39,413 bases of DNA from a virus. Its lineage: Duplodnaviria; Heunggongvirae; Uroviricota; Caudoviricetes. The position numbers were made by a program, and so were the translations under genes. Shown piece by piece: positions 5,570 to 8,965 of the stretch; position 1 is the stretch's first letter, and each line of letters begins with the position of its first letter. The notes under the pieces were generated by a model, which saw only the letters and a list, made by a program, of their open reading frames with translations, ran no database searches and was not told where the DNA came from. The stretch lies in IMG/VR virus record IMGVR_UViG_2703718855_000002, one strand, 5' to 3'.

Positions 5570-6154
5570 TTATTGTTTGTTTTTTTCGTTCTGGTTGATG
5601 ACAAATTCAATGTAACTTTCGATCTTTGCTTTCTCGGTTTCAGGTAACAATGCGTAGCGCGAGCGGTCATAGTTGATAGTTGCAGGGTCGTGCGGGTGAA
5701 TCAGTAGTTCATATCCGTGACGCCCGAATGCAGATGCAACATTCTCCAGGGTGGAAATGGAAACGCTGACCTCATTGTTTAACAGGCGGCTGATTGTCAC
5801 CTGGGCGACGCCGGATGCGCGGTGAAGTTTTCCCTGTGTTGAAAGGTCGCGGCTTTCGCTCATCCAGCGTTCCAGGTTGTGAGCCGCCAGCTGACCAATG
5901 TCGCTTGGGCCGACAGGCTGAAAACCTTCCTGAGAAAGCGAGCGATCGATATCAAGCCAGTTACGGGGTTTATTGGCGGCAGCTTCAATTTTTCGCGCAA
6001 CCTGGTCGCCGATAACCTTCTTGCCAAGAGCCCAGCGGTTTACCAGATTTGCCTGAGTTCCAAGTTTTTCAGCCATCCGCGTCTGAACACCATTGAATTC
6101 ACGGTCGATCAAGTCGTTGAGATTTTGCCTGCGGACGTCCTGGATACTTTTCAT
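5570..6154 (-). CDS. Prophage repressor (CI-like, XRE-type HTH, no S24 peptidase domain)
   Basis: 194 aa; N-terminal HTH (TRMAEKLGTQANLVNRWALGKK); divergent from Cro-like gene with palindromic operators on both sides; C-terminal half has a second HTH-like segment (ASGVAQVTISRLLN). Confidence 0.7.
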   Translation of the reverse strand: MKSIQDVRRQNLNDLIDREFNGVQTRMAEKLGTQANLVNRWALGKKVIGDQVARKIEAAANKPRNWLDIDRSLSQEGFQPVGPSDIGQLAAHNLERWMSESRDLSTQGKLHRASGVAQVTISRLLNNEVSVSISTLENVASAFGRHGYELLIHPHDPATINYDRSRYALLPETEKAKIESYIEFVINQNEKNKQ

Positions 6155-6209
6155 TTTCTGGAAAATCGCCTCATATATGAATCAGTAGATGATTCAATTT
6201 AAAGCAATA

Positions 6210-6224
6210 TTACCCAATAGGTAA
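6210..6224. promoter_or_regulatory. Operator-like palindrome TTACCCAATAGGTAA (right operator region)
   Basis: Perfect TTACC-N5-GGTAA between repressor and cro-like starts; adjacent partial site 6227..6241. Confidence 0.5.
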
Positions 6225-6257
6225 ATGCACCCCATAGGTAACTATCCTTGATTTTTG

Positions 6258-6272
6258 TTACCTTATGGGTGA
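6258..6272. promoter_or_regulatory. Operator-like palindrome, imperfect (TTACCTTATGGGTGA)
   Basis: One mismatch in right arm; 48 bp from site 6210. Confidence 0.35.
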
Positions 6273-6308
6273 ATATTTATTATCTGAAATAAATATCAGG
6301 CAATAGCT

Positions 6309-6539
6309 ATGAGCGATAACGGACATTTCGATTTCAAAAAGCACTGGCTTGCACTTACTCCGGATGAGCGTGAAGCCTTCGCACAGGAAGCCGGAACGAC
6401 GAGTCATTATATCCAGACTCACTTAACAGGTAAGCGCAAAATGCCAGGTAAAGTATTGATGAATGGGCTTTTTAAAGCCTGTAAAACAAGACAATGGCTG
6501 CGCTCAAAAGCAGAACTGGCATACTTCTTCTACTCATGA
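6309..6539 (+). CDS. Cro-like / YdaS-like small HTH regulator
   Basis: 76 aa, divergent from repressor, followed by a terminator; HTH-like segment EAFAQEAGTTSHYIQTHLTGKRK. Confidence 0.5.
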   Translation: MSDNGHFDFKKHWLALTPDEREAFAQEAGTTSHYIQTHLTGKRKMPGKVLMNGLFKACKTRQWLRSKAELAYFFYS

Positions 6540-6560
6540 TATCCATCCACAACCCTCTGT

Positions 6561-6584
6561 AGACCGCCATCCGGCGGTCTTTTC
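6561..6584 (+). terminator. Rho-independent terminator (tR1-like) after cro-like gene
   Basis: AGACCGCC-ATCC-GGCGGTCT hairpin followed by TTTT. Confidence 0.6.
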
Positions 6585-6594
6585 ATATCTATTC

Positions 6595-6609
6595 GTACCT
6601 CAAAGGTAA
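6595..6609. promoter_or_regulatory. Operator-like palindrome, imperfect (GTACCTCAAAGGTAA)
   Basis: One mismatch in left arm; lies between tR1-like terminator and next gene. Confidence 0.3.
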
Positions 6610-6689
6610 TAAAAAACCAAATCTGGTTGATCTTTTTTTTGTGTCAGCACAAAATGACCGTAATCCCAATACTAATAACAGGGCTTACC

Positions 6690-6890
6690 ATGGAAATCAT
6701 TACACGTATTGATGCCGCAAAGCGCGGACTTAAACGCTATTACACCGGAAAACAATGTAAGCACGGACATGACAGTGAACGCTGGGTTTACAACGGACAC
6801 TGTGTTGAGTGCACCATGGAATCAAACCGTCGCATCAGGGCAGAGATTAAGCAGATCATGATTAATTCCTCCCCACAACACTCAAGCTGA
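6690..6890 (+). CDS. Small Cys/His-rich (zinc-ribbon-like) protein
   Basis: CKHGHDSERWVYNGHCVEC; start uncertain (ATG 6690 or 6654, TTG 6627). Confidence 0.35.
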   Translation: MEIITRIDAAKRGLKRYYTGKQCKHGHDSERWVYNGHCVECTMESNRRIRAEIKQIMINSSPQHSS

Positions 6891-6905
6891 TAGCGGAGAT
6901 TAATC

Positions 6906-7721
6906 ATGAGCAGACATGCAACAGATTGGGCCTGGGAGACAGATCCAGGCAGCTCATCATTAAAGCTCATACTGCTCTCGATGGCTGACAGAGCCGATGA
7001 ATATAACCTCTGCTACCCCAGCATAGAACGCCTAGTTAAAGACACTTGCCTGAATAAAAAAACCGTGCAGGCCGGACTTATATCGCTCATGAAAATGGGG
7101 CTTATTTCAGATACCGGAGAGAGAAAGGGAGCGACGAAAAGAGTGCGGGTTTTCTCTCTTAATATAACCAAAAACGGGAACATTAAAGGCAACCGGGAAG
7201 GGGGTAATGAACCCGAAAACGGTAATGTTACCGAAAACGGGAATATACCCAAAAACGGGATGTTGAATGATCCCAAAAACGGGATGTTGAATGATCCCAA
7301 AAACGGGATCCAGAACCAGTCATATAACCAGTCATTTAACCAAGAGAGGGAGAGCAGGACAAAAACCGGGGATTCTGTGCCTCATGACCCCGGCGCAAAC
7401 AACGCTGTGATGAATAACTTTGTTCCTCCAGGTGGGCCAGGGCAATTAGGCAAATTTGTCATGCATGAACAATGGCAGCCATCAGATGACTTTCTTCGGA
7501 AAAGCTCATTGCAGGGGATCTACCTGGACAGTCTGCCAACGGCACAGGAACTTGCAGAGTTCAGAATTTACTGGATGGCTGAGGGTAAGGCATACCATCA
7601 GGCACAGTGGGAGCAGAAGCTGGCAAGGCGGCTGCAGATTAGCAGACAGAAGCAATCAACATTACCTGATAACAACGTTCCGCACTGGAACAGCCCTGAA
7701 GCATGGGAGGATTTCTTGTGA
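6906..7721 (+). CDS. Replication initiation protein (lambda O-like; N-terminal HTH, C-terminal DnaT-like domain)
   Basis: 271 aa; internal iteron array encodes an Asn/Gly-rich linker; immediately upstream of P-like gene with overlapping stop/start. Confidence 0.75.
   Translation: MSRHATDWAWETDPGSSSLKLILLSMADRADEYNLCYPSIERLVKDTCLNKKTVQAGLISLMKMGLISDTGERKGATKRVRVFSLNITKNGNIKGNREGGNEPENGNVTENGNIPKNGMLNDPKNGMLNDPKNGIQNQSYNQSFNQERESRTKTGDSVPHDPGANNAVMNNFVPPGGPGQLGKFVMHEQWQPSDDFLRKSSLQGIYLDSLPTAQELAEFRIYWMAEGKAYHQAQWEQKLARRLQISRQKQSTLPDNNVPHWNSPEAWEDFL
7167..7313. repeat. Iteron array (candidate replication origin) inside O-like gene
   Basis: Six direct repeats with core CC(A/G)AAAACGG(G/T)A; two perfect 24-bp tandem copies CCCAAAAACGGGATGTTGAATGAT at 7248..7271 and 7272..7295; followed by CCAGTCAT(A/T)TAACC x2. 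Confidence 0.65.
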
Positions 7722-8503
7722 ACAACGTTTTTACCGCGATACAAAACCGTGACGGAGAAGCCCTTTCTCGCATGTCAGGTTATGAGCATCAGTACACCAA
7801 CAATGACAACGTGGTGAACATGTCAGCAGAGAGGCTTGTTGATGCCCTTTTCAAACAGCTGAAACAACTGTTTCCGGCGGCAGTGGTAACCAACCTGAAG
7901 ACGCCAGAGCAGGAAGTTTCTGCAAAACAGCAGTGGATTGCTGCGTTTGCCGAAGGGGGGATCCGAACCCGTGAACAGGTTTCTGCTGGTATGCGCCACG
8001 CCCGCGCCAGTGAATCTCCGTTCTGGCCGTCGCCAGGGCAATTCATCAAGTGGTGCAAAGACAGCAAGATGGTTCTTGGCGTCACCATTGACGATGTGAT
8101 GGCAGAGTTTCACCGGTACAGCAAGGAAAAAAGTTTATATCCTGGCGGTCCCGAAAGATTCCCGTGGCGACATCCGGTTATGTACTGGGTCGTATGTGAT
8201 ACCCGCCGTGCAATGTATCAGCGCCAGCTTAGCGAGATTGAGGTTGAGAAACACGCGCGCAGGCTGCTCGATGATTGGGCGAAAAAGGTGGCTTCCGGAC
8301 AGCAGATACCCGATCCGGTGATCAGCATACAGGCAAAGCCAGAACCCATGAGTACACCTCCGGACACAGGGAGAGACGTTTACCATCCACCAGGGCGAAG
8401 TTTCGGGTGCATGCCTAACGCCGCCACCCTGGGGGGAATAACACCGGCCCAGTGGCTGATGGAGGAATACCGGCGAGGGAAAGCGGCAGGACTCATCAGG
8501 TAG
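7703..8503 (+). CDS. Replication protein P-like (helicase loader)
   Basis: Collinear with lambda P as recalled (QWIAAFAEGGIRTREQVSAGMRHARASESPFWPSPGQFIKWCKDS vs lambda RQWVLAFRENGITTMEQVNAGMRVARRQNRPFLPSPGQFVAWCRE); start ATG 7703 or GTG 7718 overlapping O stop. Confidence 0.85.
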   Translation: MGGFLVNNVFTAIQNRDGEALSRMSGYEHQYTNNDNVVNMSAERLVDALFKQLKQLFPAAVVTNLKTPEQEVSAKQQWIAAFAEGGIRTREQVSAGMRHARASESPFWPSPGQFIKWCKDSKMVLGVTIDDVMAEFHRYSKEKSLYPGGPERFPWRHPVMYWVVCDTRRAMYQRQLSEIEVEKHARRLLDDWAKKVASGQQIPDPVISIQAKPEPMSTPPDTGRDVYHPPGRSFGCMPNAATLGGITPAQWLMEEYRRGKAAGLIR

Positions 8504-8540
8504 CACCAGCGCGGCAGCGCATTTTTTTACGCCTGTATAA

Positions 8541-8555
8541 TTACCTTGCAGGTAA
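8541..8555. promoter_or_regulatory. Operator-like palindrome TTACCTTGCAGGTAA
   Basis: Perfect site in intergenic region after P-like gene; 62 bp from site 8603. Confidence 0.5.
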
Positions 8556-8602
8556 CAAAATATGCGCATAGCTATTGATTTTAACTCTAATGTGGATTTA
8601 AA

Positions 8603-8617
8603 TTACCTGAGGGGTAA
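8603..8617. promoter_or_regulatory. Operator-like palindrome TTACCTGAGGGGTAA
   Basis: Perfect site overlapping the RBS of the gene starting at 8621. Confidence 0.5.
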
Positions 8618-8620
8618 GGC

Positions 8621-8965
8621 ATGAAAAAGCAGTTACAGGCTCTTGGTCGACTCAAGACAGGCCAGATGAACAAAACAGAATCTGCGTACTGCCAGCACCT
8701 GGAGCTGCGCAAGCATGCCGGTGAGGTGGCCTGGTACCGGTTCGAAGGTATCAAGCTGAGACTGGCTGATAACACGTTTTACACGCCGGACTTCGCAGTG
8801 ATGCTCACCACCGGAGAGATGGAATTACACGAGGTGAAAGGTTTCTGGACTGACGACGCCAGGGTGAAAACCAAAGTCGCAGCAGATCAGTATCCGTTCC
8901 GCATCATCGGCGTGACTGTGAAGCCGAAGAAAGCCGGTGGCGGATGGAATGTCGAAGTGTTCTGA
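8621..8965 (+). CDS. DUF1064-like phage protein (possible nuclease fold)
   Basis: 114 aa; pattern YCQHLELRKHAGEV...YTPDFAV...HEVKGFWTDDARVKTKV recalled as DUF1064-like. Confidence 0.45.
   Translation: MKKQLQALGRLKTGQMNKTESAYCQHLELRKHAGEVAWYRFEGIKLRLADNTFYTPDFAVMLTTGEMELHEVKGFWTDDARVKTKVAADQYPFRIIGVTVKPKKAGGGWNVEVF

What the first reader, a model, noticed from the sequence alone, without database searches (positions are those of the whole stretch)
7167..7341. Iteron-type origin embedded in the O-like replication gene
Six direct repeats with core CC(A/G)AAAACGG(G/T)A, including two perfect 24-bp tandem copies, lie inside the coding sequence and encode an Asn/Gly-rich linker, followed by CCAGTCAT(A/T)TAACC x2. 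This is lambda-like ori-within-O architecture. A GGTAATGTTACC palindrome (7221..7232) inside the array is the inverse arrangement of the operator half-sites.
Basis: partly seen in the sequence, partly recalled or inferred. Interest (0 to 1): 0.4.

Follow-up and report, generated by a model that had tools for sequence, protein, structure and literature searches.

The report
Phage replication origin inside initiator gene
A phiV10-like E. coli phage carries, inside its replication-initiator gene, a row of short DNA repeats that are most likely the initiator's own binding sites and the phage's replication origin; this is the arrangement known from phage lambda, so the finding is real but of a familiar kind.

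Summary
Six CCRAAAACGGKA cores lie at 7168-7308, the only copies in the 39-kb window. The last 2.6 units form a perfect 24-bp tandem. A 12-bp AACCAGTCAT repeat follows.

The repeats sit in the linker of gene 6906-7721, between an HTH_36 winged-helix N-domain and a DnaT-like C-domain. A lambda-P-type helicase loader gene comes next. The window is a phiV10/epsilon15-type phage.

Comparative evidence favours a DNA-level element:
- 61 of 71 diverse loci chosen only by N-domain similarity have at least 3 repeats right after that domain, against 6 of 414 control windows.
- The same core is read in two or three reading frames in relatives.
- The array travels with the N-domain while the C-domain is swapped. 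Edwardsiella phage GF-2 joins it to a lambda-O C-half and the lambda ori right arm.
- Initiators with the same DnaT domain but another N-domain have no array.
- Copy number varies from 5 to 9 among near-identical phages.

A second conserved element, three RAAYC units 12-13 bp apart, follows the array.

Origin activity is inferred, not shown. The GGTAATGTTACC palindrome is incidental. Verdict: a new member of the lambda-type "origin inside the initiator gene" class, of modest interest.

The parts
6906..7721 (+). Replication initiator gene (271 aa): HTH_36 winged-helix N-domain, repeat-encoded linker, DnaT-like C-domain
   Evidence: ORF. Pfam HTH_36 aa 18-67 (E 1.8e-10) and DnaT aa 184-252 (E 1.1e-15). 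PHROG 1032 'replication initiation protein' (E 1e-108). 97% identical to phiV10 gp43.
6906..7166 (+). Coding region of the winged-helix N-domain (aa 1-87), the presumed iteron-binding domain
   Evidence: AlphaFold model has mean pLDDT 82 with H-H-H-H-beta-beta winged-helix topology. Residues 90-100, where the repeats start, have pLDDT below 50. Foldseek returns generic winged-helix DNA binders, including the plasmid RepA_N initiators 4pql, 4pt7 and 5kbj.
7168..7179 (+). Iteron 1 core CCAAAAACGGGA (weakest dyad; 45 bp from iteron 2)
7213..7224 (+). Iteron 2 core CCGAAAACGGTA (CCG-AAAA-CGG dyad)
7231..7242 (+). Iteron 3 core CCGAAAACGGGA
7249..7260 (+). Iteron 4 core CCAAAAACGGGA (start of the perfect 24-bp tandem)
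7269..7286 (+). Iteron 5, GATCCCAAAAACGGGATG (5-bp inverted arms ATCCC/GGGAT around AAAAAC)
7293..7310 (+). Iteron 6, GATCCCAAAAACGGGATC (perfect 6-bp inverted arms; nearest the 12-mer repeats)
7314..7344 (+). Second repeat: AACCAGTCATAT / AACCAGTCATTT / AACCAAG (three AACC units 12 bp apart); candidate unwinding or single-strand-binding element
   Evidence: TRF period 12, 2.4 copies. phiV10 has one more unit. The homologous RAAYC x3 element occurs right after the array in 43 of 66 diverse loci and almost nowhere else in those loci. Local helix-stability minimum at the 95-96th percentile.
7342..7365 (+). Purine-rich tract AAGAGAGGGAGAGCAGGACAAAAA, at the position of the A-rich tract of relatives and of the lambda AT-rich region
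   Evidence: position by alignment; function inferred
7366..7393 (.). Inverted repeat CCGGGG ... CCCCGG to the right of the repeats; function unknown; noted only by analogy of position with the lambda ori right-arm palindrome
   Evidence: not tested further
7150..7189 (.). Least stable 30-mers on the left edge of the array (TTTTCTCTCTTAATATAACCAAAAAC)
   Evidence: 97-98th percentile of duplex instability in the window
7455..7661 (+). Coding region of the DnaT-like C-terminal domain (aa 184-252)
   Evidence: Pfam DnaT. NCBIfam DnaT, E 5e-24, below the family cut-off. PDB DnaT C-domain chains 4ou6, 6aep and 9zbt, E about 1e-20.
7703..8503 (+). Lambda-P-type helicase loader gene, overlapping the initiator stop
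   Evidence: Pfam Phage_lambda_P E 3e-56. PHROG 109 'P-like helicase loader' E 6e-92.
7221..7232 (.). GGTAATGTTACC palindrome: the junction of iterons 2 and 3, judged incidental
   Evidence: Intact in 49 of 80 close relatives; the alternative is GTTCCC.

Best explanation
The array at 7168-7310 is the phage's origin of replication, or at least its initiator-binding half.

**Proposed mechanism**
1. The six iterons have the form (T/A)CC(C/G)-A-tract-(C/G)GG(A/T). Dimers of the winged-helix N-domain of the protein whose gene contains them bind these sites and build a lambda O-some-like nucleoprotein complex.
2. The three promoter-distal iterons have the best dyad symmetry. They abut three AACC units spaced 12 bp apart and a purine-rich tract at 7314-7365, where the duplex is expected to open.
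3. The DnaT-like C-domain then holds single-stranded DNA and/or docks the lambda-P-like loader (gene 7703-8503), which delivers host DnaB.

**Shown**
- The repeats exist, are unique in the window and sit between the two domains.
- Repeats and N-domain are linked across the family.
- The repeats are conserved at the DNA level.

**Inferred**
- Binding of the N-domain to the repeats.
- Unwinding at 7314-7365.
- Helicase loading through the C-domain and the P-like protein.
For: 1. **Context.** The early region is lambdoid in order: repressor, cro-like gene, initiator, then a P-like loader.
2. **Uniqueness.** All six cores lie at this one place; 0 of 100 shuffles reach six. These are the strongest tandem repeats in the genome.
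3. **Position.** The array lies between HTH_36 (aa 18-67) and DnaT (aa 184-252), in a segment predicted disordered. Lambda's iterons lie at aa 117-145 of O in the same relative position.
4. **Family-wide linkage.** The 71 loci from one-genome-per-species contigs were chosen with aa 1-87 only. Of these, 61 have at least 3 copies of an 11-mer in the 360 nt after the N-domain, against 6 of 414 control windows.
5. **DNA-level rather than peptide-level conservation.**
   - Spacings of 17, 22 and 23 bp are common.
   - The same core is translated as SPKNG, IPKTE and PSQKR within one gene, L093.
   - It reads TQKRD versus DPKIG in GF-2.
   - It reads FECTQKRV x3 in a Proteus protein.
   - Between the window and GF-2, the array is the only part of the initiator gene with significant nucleotide similarity (80% over 118 nt), although the N-domains share 58% identical residues.
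6. **Module behaviour.**
   - GF-2 combines the homologous N-domain and array with a lambda-O C-half and the lambda ori right arm, CGTCnGAGAATTCTGnCGAATCCTCnGAC.
   - ZX5, SPN1S and Tyrion keep the DnaT C-domain with unrelated N-domains and have no array.
7. **Resemblance to lambda iterons.** Lambda has ATCCCTCAAAACGAGGGA; here it is GATCCCAAAAACGGGATC. The arms TCCC/GGGA and the A-tract centre are shared.
8. **Natural copy-number variation in whole units.** There are 5-9 cores in 79 near-identical loci, and protein lengths of 271, 279, 287 and 311 aa. The right-hand units and the first two 12-mers carry no polymorphism.
9. **Second conserved element.** RAAYC x3 immediately follows the array.
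10. **No alternative origin signal.** There are no DnaA boxes in the whole window. The AT-rich intergenic stretch at 6580-6632 is shared at 98% identity with ZX5, which has a different initiator.
11. **Literature.**
   - Lambdoid origins lie in the middle of O, with 4 or 6 iterons (PMC7466680).
   - HHpred places HTH_36 in lambda O. The domesticated HTH_36+DnaT_C / P-like pair DopC/DopE lacks iterons (PMC5509034).
   - HTH_36 Rep proteins occur in plasmid replication modules with predicted iteron-containing origins (PMC3832669).
Against: - There is no experimental evidence for binding or for origin firing, and no record in the phage collection annotates an origin here.
- The flank of the array is only moderately unstable: GC 42-45%, 95-98th percentile. 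It is not a lambda-like 80% AT tract.
- All six window copies are in one reading frame, so within this genome alone a peptide-level repeat cannot be excluded.
- The three left iterons have weak dyad symmetry.
- Homology of the N-domain to lambda O is weak in direct tests: hhalign probability 14%, and no Phage_rep_O hit.
Confidence: 0.75

Rival explanations
1. The repeats are initiator-binding sites, but they work in control rather than as the start site. They might auto-regulate or attenuate transcription through the replication operon, titrate or handcuff the initiator, or exclude related phages. The DNA would open elsewhere.
For: - The flank of the array is only modestly AT-rich.
- The most AT-rich local stretch is the intergenic 6580-6640, GC 27-33%.
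- Iteron arrays in plasmids also serve copy control. This is general knowledge cited in PMC3832669.
Against: - The 6580-6632 stretch is 98% identical in ZX5, which has an unrelated initiator N-domain. It therefore does not co-vary with the initiator.
- It holds no iteron copy.
- Relatives have a conserved RAAYC x3 element plus an A-rich tract directly after the array, and GF-2 has the lambda ori right arm there.
- Control and origin roles are not mutually exclusive.
Confidence: 0.13
2. The repeats have no cis function. They are a slippage-prone, low-complexity Asn/Gly linker kept only because the protein needs a flexible tether.
For: - All six window copies are in frame, with periods of 18 and 24 bp.
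- The linker is predicted disordered.
- Copy number drifts by whole in-frame units.
Against: - In relatives the same DNA core is used in two or three frames and at 17- and 22-bp periods.
- The core is conserved from Escherichia to Vibrio, Acinetobacter and Halieaceae while the encoded peptide changes.
- The iterons are dyad-symmetric; GF-2 has the perfect 16-bp palindrome ATCCCAAAATTGGGAT.
- The array is absent when the N-domain is replaced.
Confidence: 0.07
3. The array is recognised by another protein. One candidate is the phage repressor, through the GGTAA/TTACC half-sites of the 7221-7232 palindrome. Another is a host factor.
For: TTACC-N5-GGTAA is a genuine 10-copy motif in this genome, and the palindrome contains both half-sites.
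Against: - The half-sites are in inverted order and at a different spacing.
- The palindrome is intact in only 49 of 80 close relatives and is absent from GF-2, Vibrio and other arrays.
- The conserved part of each unit is the CCC-A-tract-GGG core, not GGTAA.
Confidence: 0.03

Closest known systems
Phage lambda ori inside gene O (also the 434, 82, 21 and Stx-phage variants)
   Same: - Direct repeats with internal dyad symmetry and an A-tract centre (lambda ATCCCTCAAAACGAGGGA; here GATCCCAAAAACGGGATC).
- Located in the linker between the N-terminal DNA-binding domain and the C-terminal domain of the initiator.
- The next gene is a P-type helicase loader.
- Iteron number varies between relatives: 4 in lambda, 6 in Stx phages (PMC7466680).

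   Different: - The arms are 3 bp closer together.
- The initiator matches Pfam HTH_36, not Phage_rep_O.
- The C-domain is DnaT-like rather than the lambda O C-domain.
- The flank is three 12-bp AACC units plus a purine tract rather than a strongly AT-rich tract.
- There are 5-9 iterons.

Edwardsiella phage GF-2 / Edno5 'O' gene
   Same: Homologous N-domain (58% identity over aa 1-87), and an array about 80% identical at the DNA level with the same 24-bp unit (GAATGATCCCAAAATTGGGATTTTG), followed by CAGAATCAGTCAT.
   Different: The C-terminal half and the right arm of the origin are lambda-type. It is a natural hybrid showing that N-domain plus array is an exchangeable module.
DopC/DopE of Cellvibrionales and Oceanospirillales (Brezellec et al. 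2017, PMC5509034)
   Same: The same two-gene architecture: HTH_36 + DnaT_C protein followed by a lambda-P-like protein.
   Different: DopC/DopE are chromosomal, domesticated genes, and the authors found no iteron-like sequences in dopC. The phage gene here keeps a full array.
RepA_N plasmids of Gram-positive bacteria (pSK41, pTZ2162, pAD1) and other phage initiators with an internal origin (SPP1 gene 38, lactococcal TP901-1 and Tuc2009)
   Same: A winged-helix initiator whose binding repeats lie inside its own coding sequence. RepA_N structures 4pql, 4pt7 and 5kbj appear among the fold matches. That these systems have an internal origin is from my own knowledge and was not checked here.
   Different: The match is only at fold level (Foldseek E 0.01-0.04, TM about 0.5). 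There is no sequence relationship, and the partner proteins differ.
HTH_36 Rep proteins of small iteron plasmids (Paracoccus pAES7, pMARC3 and pMOS2; pKL1 type)
   Same: A replication initiator carrying an HTH_36 domain, paired with iteron-like direct repeats (PMC3832669).
   Different: The plasmid repeats are predicted upstream of rep, not inside it. The repeat sequences are different.

Membership tests
Lambda-type origin embedded in the initiator gene | Array of at least 4 direct repeats (iterons) inside the initiator coding sequence | tested here: met
   Six cores at 7168-7308 inside ORF 6906-7721, and none elsewhere in the window.
Lambda-type origin embedded in the initiator gene | Each iteron is an inverted repeat around an A-tract | tested here: met
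   Iterons 5 and 6 have 5-6 bp arms (GATCCC/GGGATC). Iterons 2-4 have 3-4 bp arms, and iteron 1 is weak. Relatives have perfect palindromes: GF-2 ATCCCAAAATTGGGAT and Bcep176 GTTCCGAAAACGGAAC.
Lambda-type origin embedded in the initiator gene | Array lies between the N-terminal DNA-binding domain and the C-terminal domain | tested here: met
   HTH_36 aa 18-67, repeats aa 88-147, DnaT aa 184-252. pLDDT collapses at residue 90.
Lambda-type origin embedded in the initiator gene | Strongly AT-rich unwinding region adjoining the last iteron | tested here: inconclusive
   7310-7349 is a local stability minimum, but only at the 95-96th percentile, with GC about 42-45%. Many relatives have TAAAAATAAAAA-type tracts there.
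Lambda-type origin embedded in the initiator gene | Helicase loader of the lambda P family encoded directly downstream | tested here: met
   PF06992 E 3e-56 for 7703-8503.
Lambda-type origin embedded in the initiator gene | Fragment replicates only when its own initiator and loader are supplied | not testable with these tools
   Needs a cloning and replication assay.
Lambda O protein family (Pfam Phage_rep_O, PF04492) | N-domain matches PF04492 above the gathering score | tested here: not met
   There is no PF04492 hit at E up to 1 for the window N-domain, whereas lambda O scores 123 bits. Remote kinship only: both proteins hit PHROGs 678 and 345 with their N parts, hhalign probability is 14%, and HHpred evidence is published (PMC5509034).
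Lambda O protein family (Pfam Phage_rep_O, PF04492) | Lambda-type C-terminal domain | tested here: not met
   The C-domain is DnaT-like. GF-2 has the lambda type.
HTH_36 + DnaT_C initiator paired with a P-like loader (phage counterpart of DopC/DopE) | HTH_36 N-domain, DnaT C-domain, adjacent P-family gene | tested here: met
   The architecture is as drawn in PMC5509034.
E. coli primosomal protein DnaT (NCBIfam NF002770) | Full-length match above the curated cut-off (201 bits) | tested here: not met
   The score is 85 bits and covers only aa 181-264, matching profile positions 86-169. The database name 'primosomal protein I' is a domain-level carry-over.

The most novel reading that the evidence does not exclude
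HTH_36-type phage initiators from Enterobacterales, Vibrionales, Alteromonadales, Acinetobacter and beyond may share one previously undescribed origin grammar. It would run: N-domain coding region, then 3-9 CCC-A-tract-GGG iterons, then exactly three RAAYC units spaced 12+13 bp, then an A-rich tract. In this reading the RAAYC triplet is a sequence-specific single-strand or unwinding element, analogous to the 13-mers of oriC and plasmid origins or to DnaA-trios. The near-identical iteron core across hosts would let unrelated prophages cross-fire or exclude each other's origins.
Probability: 0.25. Interest if true: 0.5.

Novelty: new member of a known kind. Interest (0 to 1): 0.3.

Why it matters
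- **Annotation.** It gives phiV10/epsilon15-type phages, which are common E. coli prophages and typing or biocontrol phages, a concrete and testable origin. No database record searched here annotates one.
- **Protein naming.** The gene is currently mislabelled 'primosomal protein I / DnaT'. The evidence here supports calling it a replication initiator.
- **Practical uses.** The array explains the length polymorphism of this protein and the broken gene calls at this locus. It marks a unit of mosaic exchange, N-domain plus iterons. It also offers a compact initiator-plus-origin cassette for vectors.
- **Limits.** Conceptually it extends the lambda paradigm rather than changing it.

Tried and rejected
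- **Direct profile comparison** of the N-domain with the lambda O N-domain gave only 14% probability. I did not claim family membership.
- **The search for homologous proteins with the 87-aa N-domain** returned mostly truncated or frameshifted gene calls. With the full protein it returned only near-identical E. coli proteins. Neither gave a diverse set, so diversity came from genome contigs instead.
- **Literature string searches** for the iteron core found only papillomavirus E2 sites and primers. Searches for a phiV10 or epsilon15 origin found nothing relevant.
- **Rfam**: no RNA family at 6000-8800 at E up to 1.
- **DnaA boxes**: none in the window.
- **GATC clustering** in iterons 5-6 is not beyond chance: 3 such clusters against about 2.2 expected.
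- **Terminator-like hairpins** on the minus strand at 7256-7299 are just adjacent iteron arms pairing.
- **The palindrome and operator link** was rejected as incidental.
- **Fold search** gave only generic winged-helix matches.

Full report
**What the window is**

The 2-kb stretch around the finding is 97% identical to Escherichia phage phiV10 (Uetakevirus, epsilon15-like) and to many related phages and prophages. The local gene order is lambdoid:
- a two-HTH repressor at 5570-6154 on the minus strand;
- a cro-like gene at 6309-6539;
- a terminator;
- a small ORF at 6690-6890;
- the 271-aa gene at 6906-7721;
- an overlapping lambda-P-family gene at 7703-8503.

**Checking the observation**

- The consensus CCRAAAACGGKA, allowing one mismatch, matches six times, all on the + strand: 7168, 7213, 7231, 7249, 7273 and 7297. 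It matches nowhere else in 39.4 kb. Shuffles give 0.54 on average and never six.
- The spacings are 45, 18, 18, 24 and 24 bp.
- TRF calls 7248-7309 a perfect 24-bp repeat of 2.6 copies. It calls 7203-7258 an 18-bp repeat and 7314-7342 a 12-bp repeat. These are the three best tandem repeats in the genome.
- CCAGTCATWTAACC is found at 7316 and 7328. A third, partial unit (AACCAAG) follows at 7338.
- The repeats encode aa 88-147, which hold 16 Asn and 9 Gly in 60 residues.

The description is accurate.

**The gene**

- Pfam finds HTH_36 at aa 18-67 and the DnaT DNA-binding domain at aa 184-252.
- The C-domain matches solved E. coli DnaT C-domains at E about 1e-20. It falls far below the NCBIfam DnaT cut-off as a whole protein. 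The database names 'primosomal protein I / DnaT' are therefore domain carry-overs.
- An AlphaFold model of aa 1-100 is a confident winged helix (mean pLDDT 82). Confidence collapses exactly where the repeats begin.
- Foldseek returns generic winged-helix DNA binders, among them the RepA_N plasmid initiators.
- The gene does not match Pfam Phage_rep_O. Lambda O matches only that family.
- A remote link exists. Both N parts hit PHROGs 678 and 345, 'replication initiation O-like'. Brezellec et al. report by HHpred that lambda O carries HTH_36, and that an HTH_36+DnaT_C protein next to a P-like protein (DopC/DopE) derives from lambda O and P (PMC5509034).
- My own hhalign test was weak, at 14% probability.

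**Is the repeat a DNA element or a peptide repeat?**

Within this window all six copies share one reading frame, so the window alone cannot decide. Relatives can.

1. *Sampling that ignores the repeats.* I searched one genome per species using only aa 1-87, so the repeats played no part in the selection. In 61 of 71 loci the 360 nt after the N-domain hold at least three copies of an 11-mer. Only 6 of 414 control windows from the same loci do.
2. *Spacing.* Typical spacings are 17, 18, 22 and 24 bp, so many arrays cannot be in one frame.
3. *Several reading frames for one core.*
   - In Vibrio salinus (L093), TCCCAAAAACGG is read as SPKNG, IPKTE and PSQKR.
   - In Edwardsiella phage GF-2 the first copy reads TQKRD and the others DPKIG.
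   - Burkholderia phage Bcep176 has 17- and 22-bp periods.
   - A Proteus protein carries FECTQKRV three times.
4. *Nucleotide conservation.* Between the window and GF-2, the array is the only part of the initiator gene with significant nucleotide similarity, 80% over 118 nt. The N-domains are 58% identical as protein. The array even aligns at 71% identity over its full length with Vibrio anguillarum phages.

The core CCC(A/G)AAAACGG is thus conserved as DNA across genera while the encoded peptide changes.

**Which domain do the repeats belong to?**

- GF-2 has the homologous N-domain and array, but a lambda-type C-half. Immediately to the right it has the lambda ori right arm, CGTCnGAGAATTCTGnCGAATCCTCnGAC.
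- Three Uetakevirus relatives (ZX5, SPN1S, Tyrion) keep the DnaT-like C-domain but have unrelated N-domains. None has a repeat array.
- The recombination joints fit this. Tyrion differs from the window over 6860-7675, essentially the initiator gene. ZX5 differs over 6632-7973.

The array therefore travels with the winged-helix domain. That is what is expected if the domain binds it.

**Resemblance to lambda**

- Lambda's four annotated iterons are ATCCCTCAAAACGAGGGA-like and lie at aa 117-145 of O.
- The best unit here is GATCCCAAAAACGGGATC, with the same TCCC/GGGA arms and A-tract, but the arms are 3 bp closer.
- Lambdoid origins are known to sit in the middle of O, with four iterons in lambda and six in Stx phages. 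O contacts the outer G residues and bends the centre of each iteron (PMC7466680).

**Population variation**

- Among 79 IMG/VR loci with an essentially identical N-domain, the array has 5 to 9 cores. Six is the most common, in 58 loci. Changes are by whole 18- or 24-bp units.
- E. coli proteins of 279, 287, 291 and 311 aa show the same variation.
- Polymorphic sites are few in the cores (4 of 72) and absent from 7249-7325. They are concentrated in the 7195-7205 spacer between iterons 1 and 2.
- These loci were selected for N-domain identity, so their diversity cannot be compared fairly with the N-domain's.

**A second conserved element**

- Directly after the last iteron, 62 of 69 diverse loci have CAGAAYC-like sequence.
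- It resolves into three RAAYC units spaced 12 and 13 bp apart, usually summing to 25 bp. In 48 of 56 loci the units fall in two reading frames.
- Across 66 loci of 3.2 kb, on both strands, the triple pattern occurs 48 times. Of these, 47 are at this position and all are on the coding strand.
- In many relatives an A-rich run (TAAAAATAAAAA) follows.
- In the window the element is AACCAGTCATAT AACCAGTCATTT AACCAAG at 7314-7344, followed by a purine tract. phiV10 has one more unit.
It is real and family-wide.
- Its role as the opening or single-strand-binding part of the origin is my inference from its position. The position corresponds to the lambda AT-rich region in the three-way alignment.

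**Helix stability**

- Inside the gene, the least stable 30-mers flank the array: 7150-7189 (97-98th percentile of the window) and 7310-7349 (95-96th percentile).
- This is consistent with an origin but weak. GC is still about 42-45%.
- The more AT-rich intergenic stretch at 6580-6640 is 98% identical in ZX5, which has a different initiator, and it holds no iteron. It is a poor candidate for an initiator-specific origin.
- The window has no DnaA box.

**The palindrome**

- GGTAATGTTACC at 7221-7232 is formed where iteron 2 (…CGGTAAT) meets iteron 3 (GTTACCG…).
- It is intact in 49 of 80 close relatives, while 20 have GTTCCC instead. It is absent from more distant arrays.
- Nothing links it functionally to the array.

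**Mechanism proposed**

1. Dimers of the winged-helix domain bind the dyad iterons.
2. The phased array and its A-tracts wrap into an O-some-like complex.
3. The three right-hand, most symmetric iterons abut the 12-bp units and the purine tract, where the duplex opens.
4. The DnaT-like domain binds single-stranded DNA and/or the P-like protein. E. coli DnaT's C-domain binds single-stranded DNA; this comes from the names of the PDB entries and from my own knowledge.
5. The P-like protein brings host DnaB.

Binding, opening and loading are all inferred.

**Known or new**

- No record in the phage collection annotates an origin here, and I found no paper describing it.
- The kind, however, is classical. 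It is a new member of the lambda-type 'origin inside the initiator gene' class. It differs in having a DnaT-like C-domain and a RAAYC-triplet flank.
- Its domesticated bacterial cousins, DopC/DopE, have lost the iterons (PMC5509034).

**Confidence**

| Reading | Confidence |
|---|---|
| Array is the initiator-binding part of the phage origin | 0.75 |
| Binding sites used only for control | 0.13 |
| Pure peptide linker with no cis function | 0.07 |
| Recognised by another protein | 0.03 |

Noticed in passing
window 5436, 5498, 6210, 8541, 8603, 11755, 14916, 32125, 33192, 33572: The 15-bp dyad TTACC-N5-GGTAA occurs 10 times against 0.01 expected. Copies flank the repressor gene and sit in the cI/cro divergent region. 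Degenerate copies lie at about 6230 and 6258. Other copies lie after the P-like gene and far away in the late region. It is probably the repressor operator, but the many distal copies are unusual.
   Followed up: partly
window 7231-7242 and 7213-7224: Iteron 3 (ACCGAAAACGGG) matches the papillomavirus E2 binding site ACCGAAAACGGT, which lies in the HPV origin, at 11 of 12 bases, and iteron 2 (CCCGAAAACGGT) likewise at 11 of 12. The literature string search hit only HPV papers. This is a coincidence or convergence on a CCG-A-tract-CGG dyad.
   Followed up: no
proteins P0005, P0009, P0014, P0025, P0032 and others: Public databases hold many truncated or frameshifted gene calls that end in or read through the array in another frame, for example NPKTVMLPKTGIYPKTG. 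The repeats evidently break assemblies and gene calling at this locus.
   Followed up: partly
L003 2501-3001 (Vibrio phage H2 and about 20 relatives): The annotated initiator ORF stops right after four perfect 24-bp iterons (167 aa). These phages seem to encode N-domain plus array without a fused C-domain, or else the record has a frameshift.
   Followed up: no
L089 (ZX5), L090 (SPN1S), L091 (Tyrion): Uetakevirus relatives have initiators with the same DnaT-like C-domain but two other, unrelated N-domains and no internal repeats. SPN1S also lacks a P-like gene after the initiator. Where their origins lie is open.
   Followed up: partly
whole window: There is no DnaA box (TTWTNCACA) on either strand, against 4.1 expected.
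   Followed up: no
window 7269, 7293, 7307: Three Dam sites (GATC) lie in iterons 5 and 6, and enterobacterial relatives also have GATC in each unit. The cluster is not statistically unusual for this genome, with 3 such clusters against about 2.2 expected. It could still matter for SeqA or Dam control.
   Followed up: partly
window 6690-6890: A small 66-aa ORF with a Cys/His-rich motif (CKHGH...HCVEC) matches PHROG 1081, of unknown function. It sits just upstream of the initiator and falls within the segment in which ZX5 differs from the window.
   Followed up: no
window 7680-7721 and alternative tails in L-loci: Near-identical initiators carry one of two C-terminal tails...PHWNSPEAWEDFL or ...LDWHNTDWIDEVWDEINSRTS. 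The second resembles the lambda O end, LDLTNTDWIYGVDL. This may be the part that matches the type of downstream loader.
   Followed up: no
L087 1801-2052 (Moraxella phage Mcat8): A distant family member has a different array: 84-bp units containing GGGGGTACAATTTTGCA and GGGGGTGCAAAAATGATACCCC. The architecture persists with a changed repeat sequence.
   Followed up: no
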